A stretch of 14,431 bases of DNA from a virus: the UHGV virus genome UHGV-1968440; one strand, written 5' to 3'. The notes below the pieces were generated by a model. The model was not told the DNA's origin. It made no database searches and saw only the letters and a list, made by a program, of their open reading frames with translations. Below are positions 1,011 through 8,883 of the stretch, piece by piece. A program made the translations under genes and the position numbers. Positions within the stretch are counted from its first letter, which is position 1; each line of letters opens with the position of its first letter.

Positions 1011-1988
1011 TTAAGCACCTCCTAGTGGATTAAACCTCACCGCATCCTGCAGGTAATCCGGCGCAAGATGGGCATAAATCATCGTTGTCTGAATCTTTGC
1101 GTGCCCCAGAATTTTCTGGAGCGTCAGAATATTGCCGCCGTTCATCATGAAATGACTGGCGAAGGTGTGGCGCAGCGCATGAACAGCCTGGCCGTCAGGA
1201 ACATCAGGTGCGACCGTTTTGATGACATCGCGAACCAATGAATAATCCAGCGTCGGAAACACCAGTTTCCCGCCCCGTTTTTTGATCTTTTCAAACAGGC
1301 TTTCAGAAATAGGAACGGTACGGTTTTTGCTGTTCTTCGTTTTTGAAAAAGTGATTCGACAATGAAGAACACGGCGCTGCTCCAGTGCCGCTACCTCGCC
1401 CCATTGCGCCCCGGTCGACAGAAGGATTTCGACAGCCAGCCGTTCATCGGGATTTTCAGCCAGTGCATCCAGCAACTGAACACATTCAGACTTACTCAGG
1501 TATCCCATTTCGCGCTCGTTAACCTTCATTCCTTTAAGGCCTTGAACGGGGTTATCGTTAAGAAAATGGCCGGATGAGATGAGTGCGGTAAACATCGCGC
1601 TTAACGCCCCAATCTCTCGATTTATGGTGCTGGGCTGTATCCCCTGCTCTATCCTGGACACACGTAGCTCGGTGAGCATCGTTGTATTAAGTTTATGCAC
1701 GCACGGGTCATCCATTGCCTCACTCAAGCGCAGCAATTTAAGGCGCGTGTTATGCCCTGACTTCATTAGCTGGCCGTGGTATTTCCACCACAAGTCAATA
1801 AGCACTGACAGCGGACGGCGATCAATAGAGTTTCCTTTCCACTCATTGTTATGCTGTTGCGCCAGCACCCACCGCTCATATAAAACTGCATCCGATTTCG
1901 TTTTAAATTTTTTACGAATGCGTTTGCCTTTACGCCCCTCCGGGCGTATGTCAAGAAGATACCCTCCCGGAATTGATTTTATGCTCAT
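1011..1988 (-). CDS. int: Tyrosine integrase, P2 Int-like
   Basis: Track ORF 1011..2138; likely start at internal M (MSIKSIPGGYLLDIRPEGRKGKRIRKKFKTKSDAV...) at 1986..1988, giving ~325 aa. C-terminal catalytic region HALRHTFASHFMMNGGNILTLQKILGHAKIQTTMIYAHLAP carries the R/H..H/Y signature of tyrosine recombinases. N-terminal segment resembles P2 integrase as I recall it. Confidence 0.9.
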   Translation of the reverse strand: MSIKSIPGGYLLDIRPEGRKGKRIRKKFKTKSDAVLYERWVLAQQHNNEWKGNSIDRRPLSVLIDLWWKYHGQLMKSGHNTRLKLLRLSEAMDDPCVHKLNTTMLTELRVSRIEQGIQPSTINREIGALSAMFTALISSGHFLNDNPVQGLKGMKVNEREMGYLSKSECVQLLDALAENPDERLAVEILLSTGAQWGEVAALEQRRVLHCRITFSKTKNSKNRTVPISESLFEKIKKRGGKLVFPTLDYSLVRDVIKTVAPDVPDGQAVHALRHTFASHFMMNGGNILTLQKILGHAKIQTTMIYAHLAPDYLQDAVRFNPLGGA

Positions 1989-2037
1989 TCGTGAAACCCC
2001 AGCGTTACAAGACCACCATGCCCCCAGCGCTCCATGA

Positions 2038-2346
2038 TTAGCCGGGCTGTGTGCCAGTCTTGCGGGGTTTTTGAGAAGGCGATGTGCTTTTTGGCCCATC
2101 AGGGGAGAGAGACGGACTGATCTGCCCAGCAGCCTCATTTGTTTTTCCCGTCATAAGCCAATTCATGTACTTAAAAAAGCGAGGGTGATTAACAATCTTG
2201 ATAAGCACTTCGCCCCCTATGTTTTCAATCCGCCCCGTTTCATAACGACGCAAAGTGCCGATAGGCACATCAATCAGGCCGCAAAATTCTTCGCGCGTTA
2301 AATCCTCTGATTCACGAATCACTCTAATTTTTTCACCGATAAGCAT
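2038..2346 (-). CDS. Immunity repressor, P2 C-type small HTH protein
   Basis: Track ORF 2038..2382; probable start at M13 (MLIGEKIRV..., ATG at 2344..2346). HTH-like segment LTREEFCGLIDVPIGTLRRYETGR. Sits between int and a divergently transcribed Cox-like gene, as in P2-like phages. Confidence 0.75.
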   Translation of the reverse strand: MLIGEKIRVIRESEDLTREEFCGLIDVPIGTLRRYETGRIENIGGEVLIKIVNHPRFFKYMNWLMTGKTNEAAGQISPSLSPDGPKSTSPSQKPRKTGTQPG

Positions 2347-2442
2347 TGACAGTGTTCCTATAAGTACACTAAGCTTGCGCACAAGGTGTACTTATAAGTA
2401 CACCAAGTCACAAACAACCACAGATAGCGCAGGTTATCACAC
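2347..2442. promoter_or_regulatory. Divergent immunity-switch region with operator-like repeats
   Basis: Direct repeat TATAAGTACAC at 2359..2369 and 2393..2403 (34 bp apart) plus an inverted copy GTGTACTTAT at 2386..2395, in the 96-bp gap between the divergent repressor and Cox-like genes. P2-type repressors are known to bind direct repeats around the early promoter. Confidence 0.5.
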
Positions 2443-4472: not shown

Positions 4473-4735
4473 CCATTCTGGACTACATCGCTACTCATCC
4501 GGGGTGTAGCGGCGGAGAGATCGCCGCAGCACTGAATACCCCAACCACAGCCATTAATGCTGAGTTACGCCGACTTTGGCGCGGCGGCTTAGTCATCAGA
4601 ACAAACCGCAGCACAGGTGGTCGCGCTCGCAAAACAGGAGGCCAGGCTTCTTACCACGTAAACCCGATGCCGTTCGGGTGTAGCAATCCACTTACTCACA
4701 TGTTTAACCAGCTACTGAAGGAAGCCAGAGCATGA
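4469..4735 (+). CDS. Small winged-helix-like DNA-binding protein, putative
   Basis: 88-aa ORF; SD AGGAG at 4456..4460; N-terminal MTILDYIATHPGCSGGEIAAALNTP resembles a winged-HTH recognition segment; ATGA overlap with both neighbours. Confidence 0.5.
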   Translation: MTILDYIATHPGCSGGEIAAALNTPTTAINAELRRLWRGGLVIRTNRSTGGRARKTGGQASYHVNPMPFGCSNPLTHMFNQLLKEARA

Positions 4736-5031
4736 GCACCATCAACCACCAGAAGCTACGCGAACTGGCATTTGCCCTGCAACGAATGGCAACGCCTCAA
4801 AAATTACTGGCATTTCGCGCAATGCTCTCGCCGTCTGCTGTGCTGGCACTGCTGAATGAGCTGGAGCACGCCAGAACCACGGCTCCTGCCATTCGCCTGA
4901 CGCTCCATCATGAAATCGCTGATTTCTGCGCGACGTTGGAGGCGCCGGGCGAACCGGAAACGCCGGAAGCAATACAGCAAGAGCTGCTGCAACGCATTGA
5001 CAAGGTTTTTGATTTTTTTCTGAACCAGTAA
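4732..5031 (+). CDS. Hypothetical early protein
   Basis: 99-aa ORF translationally coupled to the upstream gene (ATGA at 4732..4735). Confidence 0.5.
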   Translation: MSTINHQKLRELAFALQRMATPQKLLAFRAMLSPSAVLALLNELEHARTTAPAIRLTLHHEIADFCATLEAPGEPETPEAIQQELLQRIDKVFDFFLNQ

Positions 5032-5153
5032 GAAACCAGAACATGCACACACAAAAAAACCGCTTGCCATGCCGCAATCAGTCAGGTTACATTTCCGCTG
5101 CACCTCATAAAACGGGTGCCGGGATTTCCACCCCGCTGACAACCAAAGCGCAC

Positions 5154-5174
5154 AACCGCGCCAGCGGTTTTTTT
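5154..5174 (+). terminator. Candidate intrinsic terminator inside the early region
   Basis: Stem aaccgc/gcggtt with 4-nt loop followed by a run of seven T (5168..5174), ~120 bp after the stop at 5031. Confidence 0.45.
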
Positions 5175-5353
5175 GTGCGTACCGTATCGCCACGTCTTTT
5201 TCGCACACGAATTATGGTGGGGCGTACAGGGCCGACTTCGGTCGGGCCGGGTTCTTTGGTTGCCGGTTGTGGAAACCCTGTACGTCTCACCACCCCGAGT
5301 TTTCCACCTCTGGATGGTGAGTTTTCAAAACTTACAACCAAAGAGGCCACCCC

Positions 5354-5584
5354 ATGGCAAACCGCAAACAACAGCGCGCATACGCTGCGCGTCGTCACAT
5401 CCAGACTGAAATCAACCGCAGACTTTACCGCGCATCACGCGTCGCTCGTATCATGTTCATCAACATGTCACATGAGCACAGCCACGTGCTGTCAAACGCC
5501 TACTCCGCCGCAGTATTTAGCTATCTGGCGGATGATCTGCGCGAGCTTCAGCAGCTCATCGAGCAGCAAAACAAACCCCATTAA
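5354..5584 (+). CDS. Hypothetical small basic protein
   Basis: 76-aa ORF; SD AAGAGG at 5341..5346, 7 nt before the ATG. Confidence 0.55.
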   Translation: MANRKQQRAYAARRHIQTEINRRLYRASRVARIMFINMSHEHSHVLSNAYSAAVFSYLADDLRELQQLIEQQNKPH

Positions 5585-5656
5585 TTCCTGTTCCGGGCCT
5601 TTCCTGCACCTTGCGGCGGGAGGCCTTCGCACATCTGTAGTAAAGAGAATTGCAGC

Positions 5657-6046
5657 ATGATTGACGCTCATGACTTCACAAGATGGGTGCGCACACAGGA
5701 CACCCGTCTGGCTCCCGTTCTTCAGGGATTATTTGATCTCTACATCCGTGGTCGTGACAACAGAGCACGCACCACAAAACCGGAGAATGCAGACACCCTT
5801 TATTTCACAGTAGACGACTGCTACCGCGTGGACTTCACACCACACGGGCTGGCGTTGCACTGCCTGACACCACACGGAGAATCACTGCTGGCGTATTACG
5901 ACTCCCCGACCTCCGTATTTGCGGCAATGCTGGCGCATCGCACTGCTGGCGGGTGTGCCTCGCTGAGTGAATACACCGCTGAATTTAACCGCCTTTCTGC
6001 CCTCTTCTCGCAGGAGTGGCAGCGCGTGACGGGATACCAGCCATGA
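5657..6046 (+). CDS. Hypothetical protein translationally coupled to the replication initiator gene
   Basis: 129-aa ORF; its TGA (6044..6046) overlaps the ATG (6043..6045) of the downstream large gene. Confidence 0.6.
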   Translation: MIDAHDFTRWVRTQDTRLAPVLQGLFDLYIRGRDNRARTTKPENADTLYFTVDDCYRVDFTPHGLALHCLTPHGESLLAYYDSPTSVFAAMLAHRTAGGCASLSEYTAEFNRLSALFSQEWQRVTGYQP

Positions 6047-8883
6047 ATGAGTTTGCATGGAGCTGGAATGAACCACGGCCAGCCATTGATCCGGCCAGAT
6101 TTACGGAGCACAGGCAGGAAACTGAAACCGACCTGCAACGCGCCATCCGTTACTACCTTGAGGCAGACAAAAAGGCTCTGGAAGAACAGGAAGCGAAGGA
6201 GGAAGCCTTTTTCGCACAATCCACCGTGGGTAAAAAACTCATGGCATCCCTTGAGGAAGCCGGACAGCGTGAAAAGCTGGCACAAAGCATCATCAGCAAG
6301 CGTCAGGCAACAGAACAAGACCCGGTGGCCCGTGCTTTTGCCACACTGAAGGTGCTTCCCGTTTATCTGCGTAAACCTCTGAGCCGCCACCTCTCTTTCC
6401 TGCGCAAAAAACAGGAAGCCGATCGCCAGAAAGGCAAAAAGAGCTGGCAGGCTGAACGCTACGCGCGCGGAACCCTGCGCAAAATATTCGAACGCCTGGA
6501 CCGCACCGACCACCGCTGGCTGACACCGGGTTATCGCTCCCTTGCCGGACGCGAACGCCTGGATGATTTGCTTTACCTGCCGCAGCTCAACAAGCACCAG
6601 ATACAGACGCTGGCCACCATGACGGCGGCGATGTTCAGCAGCACCTTCGAAAAACTCTGCGATGGCTTTGGCGCGACCGATGGTGAGCTGACCATGGATG
6701 TAACGCTGAAGGCGTATCAGATGCTGGCCCGCATGGCGTTACACCTGCACGCCATGCCTCCACATTATGACGCACTGACAACAGACAAAGACCGGAGGAA
6801 CGAACCGGACACGGAGCTGCTGCCGGGCGCAACCCTTCGCCTGACCTGTGCGGAATGGTGGAAACGCAAACTGTGGCTGTTACGTTGCGAGTGGCGGGAA
6901 GAACAACTCCGCGCCGCCTGTCTGGTTTCCAGAAAAACATCACCCTATCTGAGCCAGGACGCGTTAAGCGAGTTTCGCGCACAGCGCGAGAAAACACGCG
7001 ATTTCCTGAAAAGTTTCATGCTGGAAAATGAAGACGGGTTCACGATTGATCTCGAGACGGTGTATTACGCGGGAGTAAGTAACCCGGTTCACCGTAAGGC
7101 AGAAATGATGGCCACCATGAAGGGGCTGGAACTTCTGGCCGAAGCCCGTGGCGACAGAGCGGTGTTTCTGACTGTCACCTGCCCGTCAAAATACCACGCA
7201 ACAACGGAGAACGGTCATCCGAATCCCAAATGGAACGGGGCCACAATGCGCGACTCCAGCGATTACCTGGTTAACACGTTTTTTGCGGCGGTCCGCAAAA
7301 AACTGAACCGCGACGGCCTGCGCTGGTATGGCATCCGCACGGTGGAGCCTCACCATGACGGCACTGTGCACTGGCATATGATGGTCTTTGCACATCCGGA
7401 CGAGATTGAAACCATCGTGTCCCACGTCTGCGATATTGCCATTCAGGAAGACCGCCACGAGCTGGGCGATGACATAACTCCGCGTTTTAAGGCGGAGTAC
7501 GTCGACGGCTCAAAAGGCACGCCAACCAGCTACATCGCCACCTACATCGGAAAGAACCTGGACAGCCGCGCCGTGGATGGCATCGACCCGAAAACGGGCA
7601 AGCCACGCGTTGACCACGAAACAGGTAAATCAATGGCCGAGAGCGTGGAGCGCGCCATCGGCTGGGCGCGCCTTCACCGGGTCCGTCAGTTCCAGTTCTT
7701 TGGCATCCCCTCCCGTCAGGTGTGGCGTGAACTGCGCCGCCTTGCCAGCCAGATGGCACGCAATCCGGAAGGCCCGCAACGGCTGAAGGATGACGCAATG
7801 GACGCGGTACTCGCTGCCGCTGATGCCGGATGTTTTGCCACCTACATTGAGAAACAGGGTGGCGTACTTGTTCCACGCAAAGACTACCTGATTCGCACCG
7901 CCTACGACCTCGCAGATGAGCTGAACGATTACGGTGAACAGAGCGTACAGATTTACGGGATCTGGTCGCCGCTCATTGGGGAGTCTTCCCGCGTATGCAC
8001 GCATCCGGATAACTGGAAGCTGGTAAGACGCAAACCGGAAGCGGAAGACAGCGCCCGCGAAAATGGTTTTGACCTTCAGGGCGGCCCTGCCGCCCCTTGG
8101 ACTCGTGGCAATAACTGTCCCCGTGTACAGGAAACAGGCAACAACGGGACAGAACAGCCGGAAGAACGGCCAGCACCGTGGCCGCAGCTTCCTGACGGCG
8201 TTGAAGTAAATGAATGGATGCGCTCACTGAAACGGCACGAACGCCGGGCGCTGATGCGTTCGCTTCGTGACAAACAGGCAAAAAACAGCAGCGATGAAAT
8301 GCAGAACTGGACACAGAGCCGCAAACAGCAGCGGCCTTTGCCTGATAACCACGAGTTACTCGCTAAAGAATGGCGGGAGTCTGCTGAATCTCTCGGCCTG
8401 CATATCGGTGAACAACAGATGCAGCACCTGTTACGGGGCGGCAGTCTGTACGTTGACGGCAGCATCATTGCACCGCAGGGATTTGAAATTGTACGCAAAC
8501 CGGATACCCGCCCGGACAGCCGAATCACGCAGCTCTGGCAGCGTCTGAGCCGTAATCATGGCGTAAGCAGCACGGAGATCCGCCATAACCCGGTCGCCAG
8601 CTATCTGGCACAGCTGGGGGCATCAGACCCTGAAGCCGCCGCACGCCTGGCATCCACACTTCAGCAGGACCAGAACACCATGAAAACACCCGTTACCGTG
8701 CTTTCTGACATGCTGCGCGCCATCCGCGACGCAGAGCACGCACAGAGAATCAGTGAAACCACTGAACGCGCCAGCCGCAAAGCAGACCTGCTGCGGGGTG
8801 GCCTGACCAGTGGAAACAAAAAACAGACAGAAACGGGACTCACGAATCCCGTAAATGAGCAAAAAACGCGCAGCGATATATGA
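6043..8883 (+). CDS. A: Rolling-circle replication initiator, P2 gpA-type HUH endonuclease
   Basis: Track ORF 6016..8883; likely start MNEFAWSW at 6043. HUH metal-binding motif VHWHMMVF (codons 7366..7389) and a paired-tyrosine motif YIATYIGKN (7531..7557), as in phiX174 gpA / P2 gpA-type initiators. Last large gene of the early operon. ~946 aa, longer than P2 gpA as I recall it (~760 aa). Confidence 0.85.
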   Translation: MNEFAWSWNEPRPAIDPARFTEHRQETETDLQRAIRYYLEADKKALEEQEAKEEAFFAQSTVGKKLMASLEEAGQREKLAQSIISKRQATEQDPVARAFATLKVLPVYLRKPLSRHLSFLRKKQEADRQKGKKSWQAERYARGTLRKIFERLDRTDHRWLTPGYRSLAGRERLDDLLYLPQLNKHQIQTLATMTAAMFSSTFEKLCDGFGATDGELTMDVTLKAYQMLARMALHLHAMPPHYDALTTDKDRRNEPDTELLPGATLRLTCAEWWKRKLWLLRCEWREEQLRAACLVSRKTSPYLSQDALSEFRAQREKTRDFLKSFMLENEDGFTIDLETVYYAGVSNPVHRKAEMMATMKGLELLAEARGDRAVFLTVTCPSKYHATTENGHPNPKWNGATMRDSSDYLVNTFFAAVRKKLNRDGLRWYGIRTVEPHHDGTVHWHMMVFAHPDEIETIVSHVCDIAIQEDRHELGDDITPRFKAEYVDGSKGTPTSYIATYIGKNLDSRAVDGIDPKTGKPRVDHETGKSMAESVERAIGWARLHRVRQFQFFGIPSRQVWRELRRLASQMARNPEGPQRLKDDAMDAVLAAADAGCFATYIEKQGGVLVPRKDYLIRTAYDLADELNDYGEQSVQIYGIWSPLIGESSRVCTHPDNWKLVRRKPEAEDSARENGFDLQGGPAAPWTRGNNCPRVQETGNNGTEQPEERPAPWPQLPDGVEVNEWMRSLKRHERRALMRSLRDKQAKNSSDEMQNWTQSRKQQRPLPDNHELLAKEWRESAESLGLHIGEQQMQHLLRGGSLYVDGSIIAPQGFEIVRKPDTRPDSRITQLWQRLSRNHGVSSTEIRHNPVASYLAQLGASDPEAAARLASTLQQDQNTMKTPVTVLSDMLRAIRDAEHAQRISETTERASRKADLLRGGLTSGNKKQTETGLTNPVNEQKTRSDI

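What the first reader, a model, noticed from the sequence alone, without database searches (positions are those of the whole stretch)
5032..5353. 322-bp structured non-coding gap inside the early operon
The otherwise tightly packed, translationally coupled early genes are interrupted by an ORF-free stretch. It contains an intrinsic terminator (5154..5174), a perfect 5-bp stem with a UUCG-type tetraloop (ccgacTTCGgtcgg, about 5234..5247), and a second hairpin (ctcacca ... tggtgag, about 5286..5317) followed by TTTT. This could be an attenuator separating regulatory genes from replication genes with an internal promoter, or a small RNA gene. The only track ORF covering it (5043..5660) is Ser/Thr/Pro-rich and looks spurious.
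Basis: seen in the sequence. Interest (0 to 1): 0.4.

Follow-up and report, generated by a model that had tools for sequence, protein, structure and literature searches.

The report
Antisense-RNA switch guarding a phage antirepressor
The 322-bp "empty" gap in this P2-like prophage holds two known phage small-RNA genes, an IsrK-type leader and a C4/CI-type antisense RNA. Together with their matching target sites they most likely gate a P4-epsilon-like antirepressor gene, so this is a new copy of a known device, not a new one.

Summary

**What is there**
- Window 5047-5353 is a self-contained RNA cassette.
- Promoter-like site at 5064-5093.
- IsrK / c4-a1b1-type leader at 5100-5174 (Rfam 64.3 bits).
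- C4 antisense RNA at 5210-5297 (82 bits).
- Target sites a2 (5301-5307) and b2 (5335-5344). b2 overlaps the Shine-Dalgarno sequence of the 76-aa gene at 5354.

**The regulated gene**
That gene is a homologue of the satellite phage P4 epsilon antirepressor (Pfam Derepression; BLASTP E=5e-8).

**Comparative evidence**
Across 69 related loci the C4 recognition sequences take 28 (a') and 44 (b') forms. Their targets change with them: a' finds its own complement in 91-97% of loci and b' in 59-80%, against 2-4% for foreign pairings.

**Closest known systems**
P4 and P1 show the same layout with the same Rfam models. These are the P4 immunity region (seqA-CI RNA-seqC-epsilon), P1 immI, and Gifsy-1 IsrK.

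**Verdict**
This is a new member of a known kind, and no RNA feature is listed over it in the RefSeq records I viewed, where PGAP calls part of the stretch an "ash family" pseudogene. Its interest is that it may explain how P2-like prophages whose repressor lacks a self-cleavage (peptidase) motif are induced.

The parts
5064..5093 (+). Promoter-like site of the cassette (-35 TTGCCA 5064-5069, 18-nt spacer, -10 TACATT 5088-5093). The predicted start is near 5100.
   Evidence: It is the only sigma-70-like site found in 4500-6000. It lies inside the block shared by ten relatives whose upstream flanks differ; nine keep it unchanged and L062 differs in the spacer. The distance from the -10 end to a1 is 32 nt, the same as for P1's annotated P1c4 promoter. 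Activity was not tested.
5100..5174 (+). IsrK / c4-a1b1-type leader RNA. Hairpin 1 is at 5100-5119. Hairpin 2 is at 5120-5135 with a1 in its loop. b1 is single-stranded. The leader ends in an intrinsic terminator.
   Evidence: Rfam isrK RF01394 scores 64.3 bits against a gathering score of 50, E = 4.3e-12. The two 5' hairpins are kept, with compensatory changes, in 30 leaders including P1 and P4.
5125..5131 (+). a1 site (UUUCCAC), complementary to a' of C4
   Evidence: Exact 7-nt complement. A locus's own a' finds a complement of at least 7 nt upstream in 97% of 69 loci, against 2% for foreign a'.
5140..5148 (+). b1 site (CAACCAAAG), complementary to b' of C4
   Evidence: Exact 9-nt complement. 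Own b' finds b1 at 7 nt or more in 59% of loci, against 4% for foreign b'.
5154..5174 (+). Intrinsic terminator of the leader (stem 5154-5169, U7 at 5168-5174)
   Evidence: Terminator scan and third hairpin of the isrK model. The T-run is conserved in all 30 aligned leaders and present in 45 of 55 unique leaders.
5210..5297 (+). C4/CI-type antisense RNA. The probable mature RNA is about 5216-5294, by alignment with P1's annotated c4. Its parts are the outer stem 5215-5231/5276-5292, the UUCG hairpin 5232-5245, and a second hairpin 5246-5267.
   Evidence: Rfam C4 RF01695 scores 82 bits against a gathering score of 45, E = 3.2e-15. Fold energy -46.4 kcal/mol, z = -3.93. 17 of 26 pairs are compensatory in 54 sequences.
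5253..5262 (+). b' recognition sequence (UCUUUGGUUG) in the 12-nt loop of C4 hairpin 2
   Evidence: There are 44 loop variants among 69 loci.
5269..5275 (+). a' recognition sequence (GUGGAAA) in the single-stranded junction of C4
   Evidence: There are 28 variants among 69 loci.
5286..5321 (+). Hairpin that presents a2 (5301-5307) in its loop. Its 5' arm is the 3' strand of the C4 outer stem, so the two structures exclude each other in an unprocessed transcript.
   Evidence: -16.5 kcal/mol, z = -3.68. An equivalent hairpin is predicted in nearly all 69 loci. A locus's own arms form at least 7 bp in 77% of cases, against 44% for foreign arms. The overlap was already noted by Weinberg 2010.
5301..5307 (+). 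a2 target (UUUCCAC)
   Evidence: Own a' finds a2 within 25 nt after C4 in 91% of loci, against 2% for foreign a'.
5335..5344 (+). b2 target (CAACCAAAGA). It overlaps the Shine-Dalgarno AAGAGG at 5341-5346 of the gene that starts at 5354.
   Evidence: Own b' finds b2 in 80% of loci, against 3% for foreign b'.
5354..5584 (+). Regulated gene: a 76-aa homologue of the P4 epsilon antirepressor ('derepression protein')
   Evidence: Pfam PF25738 scores 33.1 bits against a gathering score of 27. P4 epsilon scores 167.9 bits on the same family. BLASTP against P4 epsilon gives 35% identity over 51 aa, E = 5e-8. Variable columns by codon position are 23/24/46.

Best explanation
The gap is a mobile antisense-RNA immunity cassette. 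It is of the type known from the satellite phage P4 immunity region, P1/P7 immI and Salmonella Gifsy-1 IsrK. Here it sits in the early operon of a P88-like (Xuanwuvirus, P2-like) E. coli prophage.

Proposed mechanism:
1. A promoter of the cassette's own (5064-5093) starts transcription near 5100.
2. Most transcripts stop at the terminator (5154-5174). This gives an IsrK-like RNA of about 75 nt that displays a1 in a hairpin loop and b1 as a single strand.
3. Read-through transcripts carry the C4 RNA (about 5216-5294). By analogy with P1 C4 and P4 CI, RNase P cuts it out.
4. C4 pairs through a' and b' with a2 and b2 on the mRNA. b2 covers the Shine-Dalgarno sequence of the 76-aa epsilon-like gene, so that antirepressor is not translated.
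5. By analogy with P1 icd-ant and P4, the untranslated RNA is then terminated early. This would also limit expression of the downstream 129-aa ORF and replication gene A.
6. The leader's a1/b1 sites bind the same C4 sequences, in cis or in trans. They act as a decoy that frees a2/b2 and switches the antirepressor on.

Shown here: the families, the structures, the six complementary sites and their co-variation, and the epsilon homology.

Inferred: promoter activity, RNase P processing, translational block, polarity, the decoy role, and that the epsilon-like protein inactivates this phage's own C-type repressor.
For: **Family matches and structure**
- Rfam matches above gathering scores.
- C4 structure with 17 of 26 compensatory pairs. 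Leader hairpins and T-run are conserved.

**Complementary sites**
- Exact complements: a':a1 and a':a2 at 7 nt, b':b1 at 9 nt, b':b2 at 10 nt, with b2 on the Shine-Dalgarno sequence.
- Across 69 unique loci with 28 a' and 44 b' variants, own-versus-foreign complementarity of at least 7 nt is 97/59/91/80% against 2-4%.
- Among ten near-identical relatives, variable columns fill 38 of 62 positions in the six sites and 55 of 242 elsewhere (Fisher p = 2e-8). The changes match each other.

**Same layout in known systems**
- P1's annotated map has the same order and nearly the same spacings.
- P4 gives isrK 60.8 bits and C4 74.9 bits upstream of epsilon.
- The window protein is an epsilon homologue.

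**Published function**
- IsrK supplied in trans raises translation of the downstream antirepressor 139-fold in the Table 1B fusion. An RNA of about 80 nt (STnc1160) is processed from the read-through transcript. The authors call IsrK a structural homologue of P4 SeqA (PMC4825925).
- C4 and CI are listed as RNase P substrates (PMC5499578).
- The a1/b1 competition idea is stated in the Weinberg 2010 supplement.

**Fold of the full precursor**
- In the minimum-energy fold of 5100-5360, a1/b1 pairs with a'/b' and the a2 hairpin forms. I read this as matching the inactive 'structure A' of Gifsy-1.
Against: - Nothing here measures RNA or protein. The promoter is a 9-of-12 consensus match only.
- The Rfam c4-a1b1 model (RF03163) was not reported for the window at E up to 5, although it scores on P1 and P4. 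Only the isrK model covers the leader.
- Whole-molecule duplex energies of C4 with its targets are not clearly better than shuffles: 18 of 300 and 39 of 300 shuffles did as well.
- The Gifsy-1 authors explain activation through translation of 'orf45' and alternative folds, not through C4 titration. Constitutive STnc1160 did not relieve IsrK toxicity.
- No LexA box or other input signal lies near the cassette, so the trigger is unknown.
- The hairpin-2 stem of C4 is invariant in my sample because the search pattern required it.
Confidence: 0.8

Rival explanations
1. P4-style immunity is the main output. C4 pairing with a1/b1 and a2/b2 on nascent transcripts mainly causes premature transcription termination. 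This shuts off the downstream replication gene A (6016-8883) in the lysogen, and control of the antirepressor is secondary.
For: The gene order (leader, C4/CI RNA, epsilon-like gene, small ORF, replication gene) parallels P4's seqA, CI, seqC, epsilon, orf151, cnr, alpha. P4 prevents expression of its replication genes this way (PMC4825925 discussion).
Against: In P2-like phages the early operon is already repressed by C at Pe (established knowledge). No Rho-dependent site can be read from sequence. b2 sits on the Shine-Dalgarno sequence of the epsilon-like gene, which fits translational control as the first step. The two readings are compatible.
Confidence: 0.35
2. The stretch acts in cis as an attenuator. 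The 3' strand of the C4 outer stem switches between the C4 fold and the 5286-5321 hairpin followed by UUUU. That hairpin would work as a terminator deciding read-through into the replication genes, with no need for a diffusible RNA.
For: The two folds exclude each other. The hairpin is stable and conserved. Weinberg 2010 raised this possibility.
Against: A T-run of 4 or more follows the hairpin in only 16 of 69 loci. The terminator scan did not call it. Co-variation of a'/b' with sites on both sides of C4 is not explained by a cis switch alone. P1 C4 and P4 CI act in trans.
Confidence: 0.15
3. The region encodes a protein, an 'Ash family' product read from ORF 5043..5660 or from the ATG at 5214.
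For: The ORF translation hits Pfam Phage_ASH at 32.7 bits against a gathering score of 26. RefSeq annotates an 'ash family protein' pseudogene there. The frame of the C4 5' AUGG stays open to the next start codon in 48 of 60 loci, against 19 and 8 for the other frames. Translation of 'orf45' from that AUG was shown in Gifsy-1.
Against: Variable columns by codon position in that frame are 30/35/28 within 5050-5353. Inside the epsilon-like CDS they fall on its second codon position (24/46/23). Changes cluster in the RNA pairing sites and are compensatory at the RNA level. The ORF runs through a promoter and an intrinsic terminator. PGAP itself flags it as incomplete. The factor responsible for P4 termination control is the CI RNA, generated by processing of an untranslated transcript.
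Confidence: 0.05
4. This is plain operon punctuation: a terminator plus a restart promoter, with hairpins that have no regulatory RNA role.
For: A terminator and a promoter-like site are present.
Against: There are two Rfam matches above gathering scores. Structural and intermolecular co-variation is extensive. The cassette occurs in unrelated phage types.
Confidence: 0.03

Closest known systems
Satellite phage P4 immunity region (PLE leader with seqA, CI RNA with seqB, seqC, then epsilon, orf151, cnr, alpha)
   Same: The same two Rfam families occur in the same order and orientation (P4: isrK 60.8 bits, C4 74.9 bits). The P4 leader and CI loops show the same a1/b1 to a'/b' complementarity (read from the alignments). 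The gene downstream is the same family: P4 epsilon and the window's 76-aa protein are both PF25738, and BLASTP gives E = 5e-8. A replication gene lies further downstream in both.
   Different: The host element here is a full P2-like phage, the helper type, not a satellite. The epsilon-like gene starts 10 nt after b2, whereas P4 epsilon starts about 245 nt after CI. The replication gene is P2 gpA-type, not the alpha primase. The recognition sequences differ.
Phage P1/P7 immI (P1c4/P51b promoter, a1, b1, c4, a2, b2, icd, ant1/2)
   Same: The order is identical and the spacings are close. The -10 to a1 distance is 32 nt in both. a1 to b1 is 14 versus 15 nt. b2 to ATG is 11 versus 10 nt. P1 scores C4 at 68.8 bits, c4-a1b1 at 51 bits, and isrK at 35.1 bits, below its gathering score. 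The regulated function is an antirepressor.
   Different: There is no Icd or Ant homologue; P1 Icd has no Pfam match and the window protein is epsilon-like. No second, C1-controlled promoter was found. The host is a P2-like phage, not a P1-like plasmid prophage.
Salmonella Gifsy-1 IsrK, orf45 (STnc1160), anrP (Hershko-Shalev 2016, PMC4825925)
   Same: An IsrK-family leader with its own promoter and a leaky terminator is followed by a processed RNA of about 80 nt and an antirepressor gene. The middle part of IsrK pairs with the downstream RNA.
   Different: In Gifsy-1 'orf45' ends on the anrP start codon (AUGA). Here the same frame runs past the epsilon-like start and ends at 5658-5660, on the start of the next ORF. 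The antirepressor families differ and the host phage is lambdoid. The authors did not equate orf45 with C4.
Phage-plasmid N15 cA ('secondary immunity repressor') upstream of its antirepressor operon
   Same: blastn of 5095-5360 matches the N15 cA locus at 69% identity over 76% of the query (H110).
   Different: Only sequence similarity was checked here.

Membership tests
C4 antisense RNA (Rfam RF01695; P1/P7 C4, P4 CI) | Covariance-model score at or above the curated gathering score | tested here: met
   82 bits against 45, E = 3.2e-15, full-length match 1-87
C4 antisense RNA (Rfam RF01695; P1/P7 C4, P4 CI) | A long outer stem enclosing two hairpins, the first usually with a stable tetraloop | tested here: met
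   17-bp outer stem, UUCG hairpin at 5232-5245, second hairpin with a 12-nt loop. 17 of 26 pairs are compensatory in 54 sequences.
C4 antisense RNA (Rfam RF01695; P1/P7 C4, P4 CI) | Unpaired a' and b' complementary to a2/b2 just downstream, with b2 at the ribosome-binding site of the next gene | tested here: met
   a':a2 7 nt; b':b2 10 nt, overlapping AAGAGG 7 nt before the ATG at 5354. Co-variation in 69 loci.
C4 antisense RNA (Rfam RF01695; P1/P7 C4, P4 CI) | Excised from a longer transcript by RNase P | not testable with these tools
   Known for P1 C4 and P4 CI (PMC5499578). Here only the conserved AUGG...CCACC ends are seen.
isrK / c4-a1b1 leader (Rfam RF01394 / RF03163) | Covariance-model score at or above the gathering score | tested here: met
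   isrK scores 64.3 bits against 50. RF03163 (c4-a1b1) was not reported at E up to 5, so membership rests on the isrK model.
isrK / c4-a1b1 leader (Rfam RF01394 / RF03163) | Two 5' hairpins with a1 in the loop of the second, b1 just 3' of them, located upstream of a C4 RNA | tested here: met
   matches the description in the Weinberg 2010 supplement.
isrK / c4-a1b1 leader (Rfam RF01394 / RF03163) | Ends in a Rho-independent terminator that is partly read through | tested here: inconclusive
   The terminator is present and conserved. Read-through cannot be measured here.
isrK / c4-a1b1 leader (Rfam RF01394 / RF03163) | Hfq binding | not testable with these tools
   Taken from the family name only.
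P4-type RNA immunity region | An epsilon (helper derepression) gene downstream of the CI RNA | tested here: met
   PF25738 scores 33.1 bits against 27. BLASTP against P4 epsilon gives E = 5e-8.
P4-type RNA immunity region | RNA-dependent premature termination that silences the replication operon in the lysogen | not testable with these tools
   Only the gene order is shared.
P1/P7 immI | icd-ant operon as the regulated genes | tested here: not met
   The first gene is epsilon-like. No Ant, KilA or Icd family was found at 5354-6046.
Ash protein family (Pfam PF10554) | A protein-coding gene under amino-acid constraint | tested here: not met
   The profile matches the ORF at 32.7 bits. Variable columns by codon position are 30/35/28 and 24/46/23.

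The most novel reading that the evidence does not exclude
P88/Sp13-type P2-like prophages, whose C-type repressors lack a peptidase (self-cleavage) motif, are induced through this cassette. A rise in the IsrK-like decoy, or a fall in C4, frees the ribosome-binding site of an epsilon-like antirepressor, which then inactivates the phage's own C repressor. The two short recognition sites (a and b) form a fast-evolving two-part RNA address that is reshuffled between phages. This would give dozens of mutually blind immunity types. P4 satellites and their helper-type phages would have exchanged the whole CI-epsilon unit.
Probability: 0.25. Interest if true: 0.55.

Novelty: new member of a known kind. 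Interest (0 to 1): 0.33.

Why it matters
- About a quarter of complete E. coli genomes (1373 of 5426) carry a close copy of this stretch, including O157:H7, O104:H4 and O121 strains.
- In the RefSeq rows I saw, no RNA feature is listed there. Part of the stretch is called an "ash family protein" pseudogene.
- Asadulghani 2009 found that the P2-like O157 prophage Sp13 is mitomycin-inducible although its repressor lacks a peptidase motif. They suggested its P4-epsilon-like gene might be involved and left the mechanism open (PMC2669165).
- An RNA switch directly on the ribosome-binding site of such an epsilon-like gene gives that question a concrete, testable handle.
- The comparative data also show how far the two recognition sites have diversified inside an almost invariant scaffold.

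Tried and rejected
- **tRNA/tmRNA scan.** None in the window.
- **LexA box.** CTGT-N8-ACAG with one mismatch gives 4 hits, none near the cassette and no more than chance. No SOS input can be read from the sequence.
- **Rfam at a permissive E-value on 4950-5450.** Only chance-level extra hits (IMPDH, sR19). c4-a1b1 was not reported.
- **Whole-molecule duplexfold of C4 against targets.** It does not discriminate from shuffles, so I relied on comparative co-variation.
- **tblastn of the 76-aa protein against phage records.** It reached only the P88 group (9 records) and not P4. The P4 link came from Pfam and direct BLASTP.
- **NCBIfam.** No match for the 76-aa or 129-aa proteins.
- **Protein-coding reading of ORF 5043..5660.** Rejected on codon-position patterns.
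- **Second hairpin as a general intrinsic terminator.** Not supported.
- **Shared a'+b' pairs between P4-like loci and the window's group.** In the output I saw none, so this sample gives no evidence for helper-satellite RNA cross-talk.

Full report
**Setting**

The window is a P2-like prophage. It encodes:
- an integrase (1011-2138, minus strand);
- an HTH repressor (2038-2382, minus strand);
- a Cox-like protein (2443-2721);
- a run of small early genes up to 5031;
- then a 76-aa gene (5354-5584), a 129-aa gene (5657-6046) and a P2 gpA-type replication endonuclease (6016-8883).

The nearest deposited phages are P88 and other Xuanwuvirus members of the Peduoviridae. The stretch 5032-5660 is 100% identical in several E. 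coli O157:H7 chromosomes. Related copies occur in 1373 of 5426 complete E. coli genomes.

**Checking the observation**

- The terminator is stem 5154-5169 plus seven T at 5168-5174.
- The UUCG hairpin is at 5232-5245, 2 nt left of the stated position.
- The second hairpin pairs 5286-5292 with 5315-5321, so it ends 4 nt later than stated. TTTT follows it.
- ORF 5043..5660 exists.

The structure exceeds chance. The region 5100-5360 has z = -4.12. The C4 part has z = -3.93 and the second hairpin z = -3.68, with no shuffle as good in any of the three.

**What it is**

Rfam places two families in the gap, both above their curated thresholds and both full length:
- isrK at 5100-5174, 64.3 bits against a gathering score of 50;
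- C4 antisense RNA at 5210-5297, 82 bits against 45.

The UUCG hairpin is the first inner hairpin of C4.

C4 leaves two unpaired stretches. These are the 12-nt loop of its second hairpin (b', UCUUUGGUUG, 5253-5262) and the junction after it (a', GUGGAAA, 5269-5275). Exact complements of both occur twice on the same strand:
- a1 (5125-5131) and b1 (5140-5148) inside the leader;
- a2 (5301-5307) and b2 (5335-5344) just after C4.

b2 overlaps the AAGAGG Shine-Dalgarno sequence, which lies 7 nt before the ATG at 5354. a1 sits in the loop of the leader's second hairpin.

**Comparative test**

A scan of viral contigs for the C4 core returned 119 loci. Of these, 78 have the C4 outer stem and 69 are unique.
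- *Diversity.* a' takes 28 forms and b' takes 44 forms, in 50 combinations.
- *Matching of a'.* A locus's own a' finds a complement of at least 7 nt upstream in 97% of loci and just after C4 in 91%.
- *Matching of b'.* Its own b' does so in 59% (upstream) and 80% (downstream).
- *Control.* Recognition sequences from other loci reach this in 2-4%.
- *Reshuffling.* a' and b' are recombined independently. The window's b' also occurs with a different a'.

Ten close relatives of the window share an almost invariant scaffold.
- Their differences fill 38 of 62 positions in the six sites and 55 of 242 elsewhere (Fisher p = 2e-8). The changes match each other.
- Homology among them begins near 5047, and the upstream flanks differ. 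The cassette therefore carries the promoter-like site TTGCCA-18-TACATT (5064-5093) with it. Nine of the ten keep that site unchanged and L062 differs in its spacer.

Structural co-variation supports both RNAs.
- The C4 fold is supported by compensatory changes in 17 of 26 pairs across 54 sequences that include P1 and P4.
- The stem of C4 hairpin 2 is invariant only because my search pattern fixed it.
- The leader's two 5' hairpins and its T-run are kept in 30 leaders. A T-run of at least 5 follows b1 in 45 of 55 unique leaders.

**Comparison with known systems**

*P1.* The deposited P1 record annotates the P1c4 promoter, a1, b1, c4, a2, b2, icd and ant1. The order is the same as in the window and the spacings are nearly the same. 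On P1, Rfam gives C4 at 68.8 bits, c4-a1b1 at 51 bits and isrK at 35.1 bits.

*P4.* On satellite phage P4, Rfam gives isrK at 60.8 bits and C4 at 74.9 bits, upstream of epsilon. The C4 match lies inside P4's old 'cI' ORF, where I place the CI RNA.

*The regulated gene.*
- The window's 76-aa protein and P4 epsilon belong to the same Pfam family, PF25738 (33.1 and 167.9 bits).
- They align at 35% identity over 51 residues, E = 5e-8.
- The substitution pattern in the 76-aa frame marks it as the coding frame: 23/24/46 variable columns by codon position.

*Literature.*
- Weinberg 2010 described the c4 motif and the c4-a1b1 motif. It recorded the proposal that a1/b1 compete with a2/b2 for C4. It also noted that the 3' half of the C4 outer stem often overlaps a terminator-like hairpin (PMC2864571).
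- Hershko-Shalev 2016 showed several things for Gifsy-1 (PMC4825925). IsrK has its own promoter and a leaky terminator. IsrK in trans activates translation of the downstream antirepressor 139-fold. An RNA of about 80 nt (STnc1160) is processed from the read-through transcript. IsrK is a structural homologue of P4 SeqA.
- C4 and CI are listed as RNase P substrates (PMC5499578).

Every component of the finding therefore belongs to a described kind.

**How it most likely works**

1. The cassette promoter fires near 5100.
2. Termination at 5174 yields the IsrK-like leader.
3. Read-through yields a precursor from which C4 is excised. By alignment with P1's annotated mature RNA, this is about 5216-5294.
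4. C4 pairs with a2 and b2 and blocks the ribosome-binding site of the epsilon-like antirepressor gene.
5. By analogy with P1 and P4, the untranslated RNA is then terminated early. This would also limit the 129-aa ORF and gene A.
6. The leader offers the same two sites and can titrate C4, or hold it in cis.

On the last point, in the minimum-energy fold of 5100-5360 the a1/b1 region pairs with a'/b'. The a2 hairpin forms in place of the C4 outer stem.

Shown: family membership, structures, sites, co-variation and epsilon homology. Inferred: promoter activity, processing, translational block, polarity, the decoy role and the protein's target.

**The second hairpin**

It is stable and an equivalent is predicted in nearly all loci. 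Its arms co-vary only moderately: at least 7 bp in 77% of own pairings against 44% of foreign ones. A T-run follows it in only 16 of 69 loci. I read it as a hairpin that displays a2, as the leader hairpin displays a1, and that competes with the C4 fold in unprocessed RNA. I do not read it as a general terminator.

**The ORF over the gap**

- ORF 5043..5660 hits Pfam Phage_ASH at 32.7 bits. The matched residues correspond to nt 5088-5372, which is the RNA cassette. P4's old 'cI' ORF hits the same family.
- RefSeq annotates an incomplete 'ash family protein' pseudogene here.
- The frame shows no third-position bias: 30/35/28 in the gap and 24/46/23 within the epsilon-like CDS.
- This is the frame of the conserved AUGG at the 5' end of C4, and I equate it with the 'orf45' frame of Gifsy-1. 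It stays open to the next start codon in 48 of 60 loci, against 19 and 8 for the other two frames. Translation through it may matter even though no protein is conserved.

**Novelty and value**

This is a new member of a known kind.
- I found no paper describing the cassette in P2-like phages, and no RNA feature is listed over it in the E. coli records viewed.
- One Stx-phage record, LC710661.1, does annotate both families.
- The presence of a P4-epsilon-like gene in a P2-like O157 prophage (Sp13), and the puzzle of its mitomycin induction, were published in 2009 (PMC2669165).
- I did not check whether the window's prophage is Sp13. O157 Sakai was not among the listed hits.
- Placing an antisense switch on the ribosome-binding site of such a gene turns that open point into a direct experiment.

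Noticed in passing
window 5043-5660 (+); L122 8168-8584 (-): Pfam Phage_ASH (PF10554) matches the translation of the isrK + C4 RNA cassette, both here and in P4's historical 'cI' ORF. RefSeq calls the stretch an 'ash family protein' pseudogene. Codon-position patterns show no protein constraint, so the family may be a translated RNA region.
   Followed up: partly
window 5214-5660 (+): The ATG in the conserved C4 5' AUGG opens a 148-codon frame. It crosses a2, b2 and the whole epsilon-like gene out of frame. It stops at TGA 5658-5660, overlapping the ATG at 5657 of the 129-aa ORF (ATGA). Relatives keep the 148-150 codon length. Across families this frame is open to the next start codon in 48 of 60 loci, against 19 and 8 for the other frames.
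   Followed up: partly
L002-L120 (IMG/VR loci), first ORF after b2: C4 cassettes precede many unrelated first genes: Rha, Bro-N, P22_AR_N, AntA/ANT, DUF6124, DUF3077 and a Tad2-like (Thoeris anti-defence 2-like) protein in L017. L118 has a similar 85-aa first ORF that was not scanned.
   Followed up: partly
window 5269-5275; L007, L020, L083: The window's a' (GUGGAAA) is the reverse complement of a common a' in other cassettes (UUUCCAC). So its a1/a2 sites have the sequence that other C4 RNAs use as a'.
   Followed up: no
window 5585-5656: The 72-nt spacer after the epsilon-like gene holds a GC-rich hairpin at about 5595-5626, with no T-run. Its fold is only weakly better than shuffles (z = -1.55).
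   Followed up: partly
L001 3556-3744 (P88 record 5033-5221, minus strand): Phage P88's record annotates a minus-strand hypothetical protein (SF19_gp13) over the leader and C4 stretch. The equivalent minus-strand ORF in the window (5105-5398) has no Pfam match, so this is probably a spurious call.
   Followed up: partly
window 5032-5660: A close copy of the cassette plus the epsilon-like gene occurs in 1373 of 5426 complete E. coli genomes, with up to 4 places per genome. These include O104:H4 outbreak strains, O157:H7, O121 and O55:H7.
   Followed up: partly
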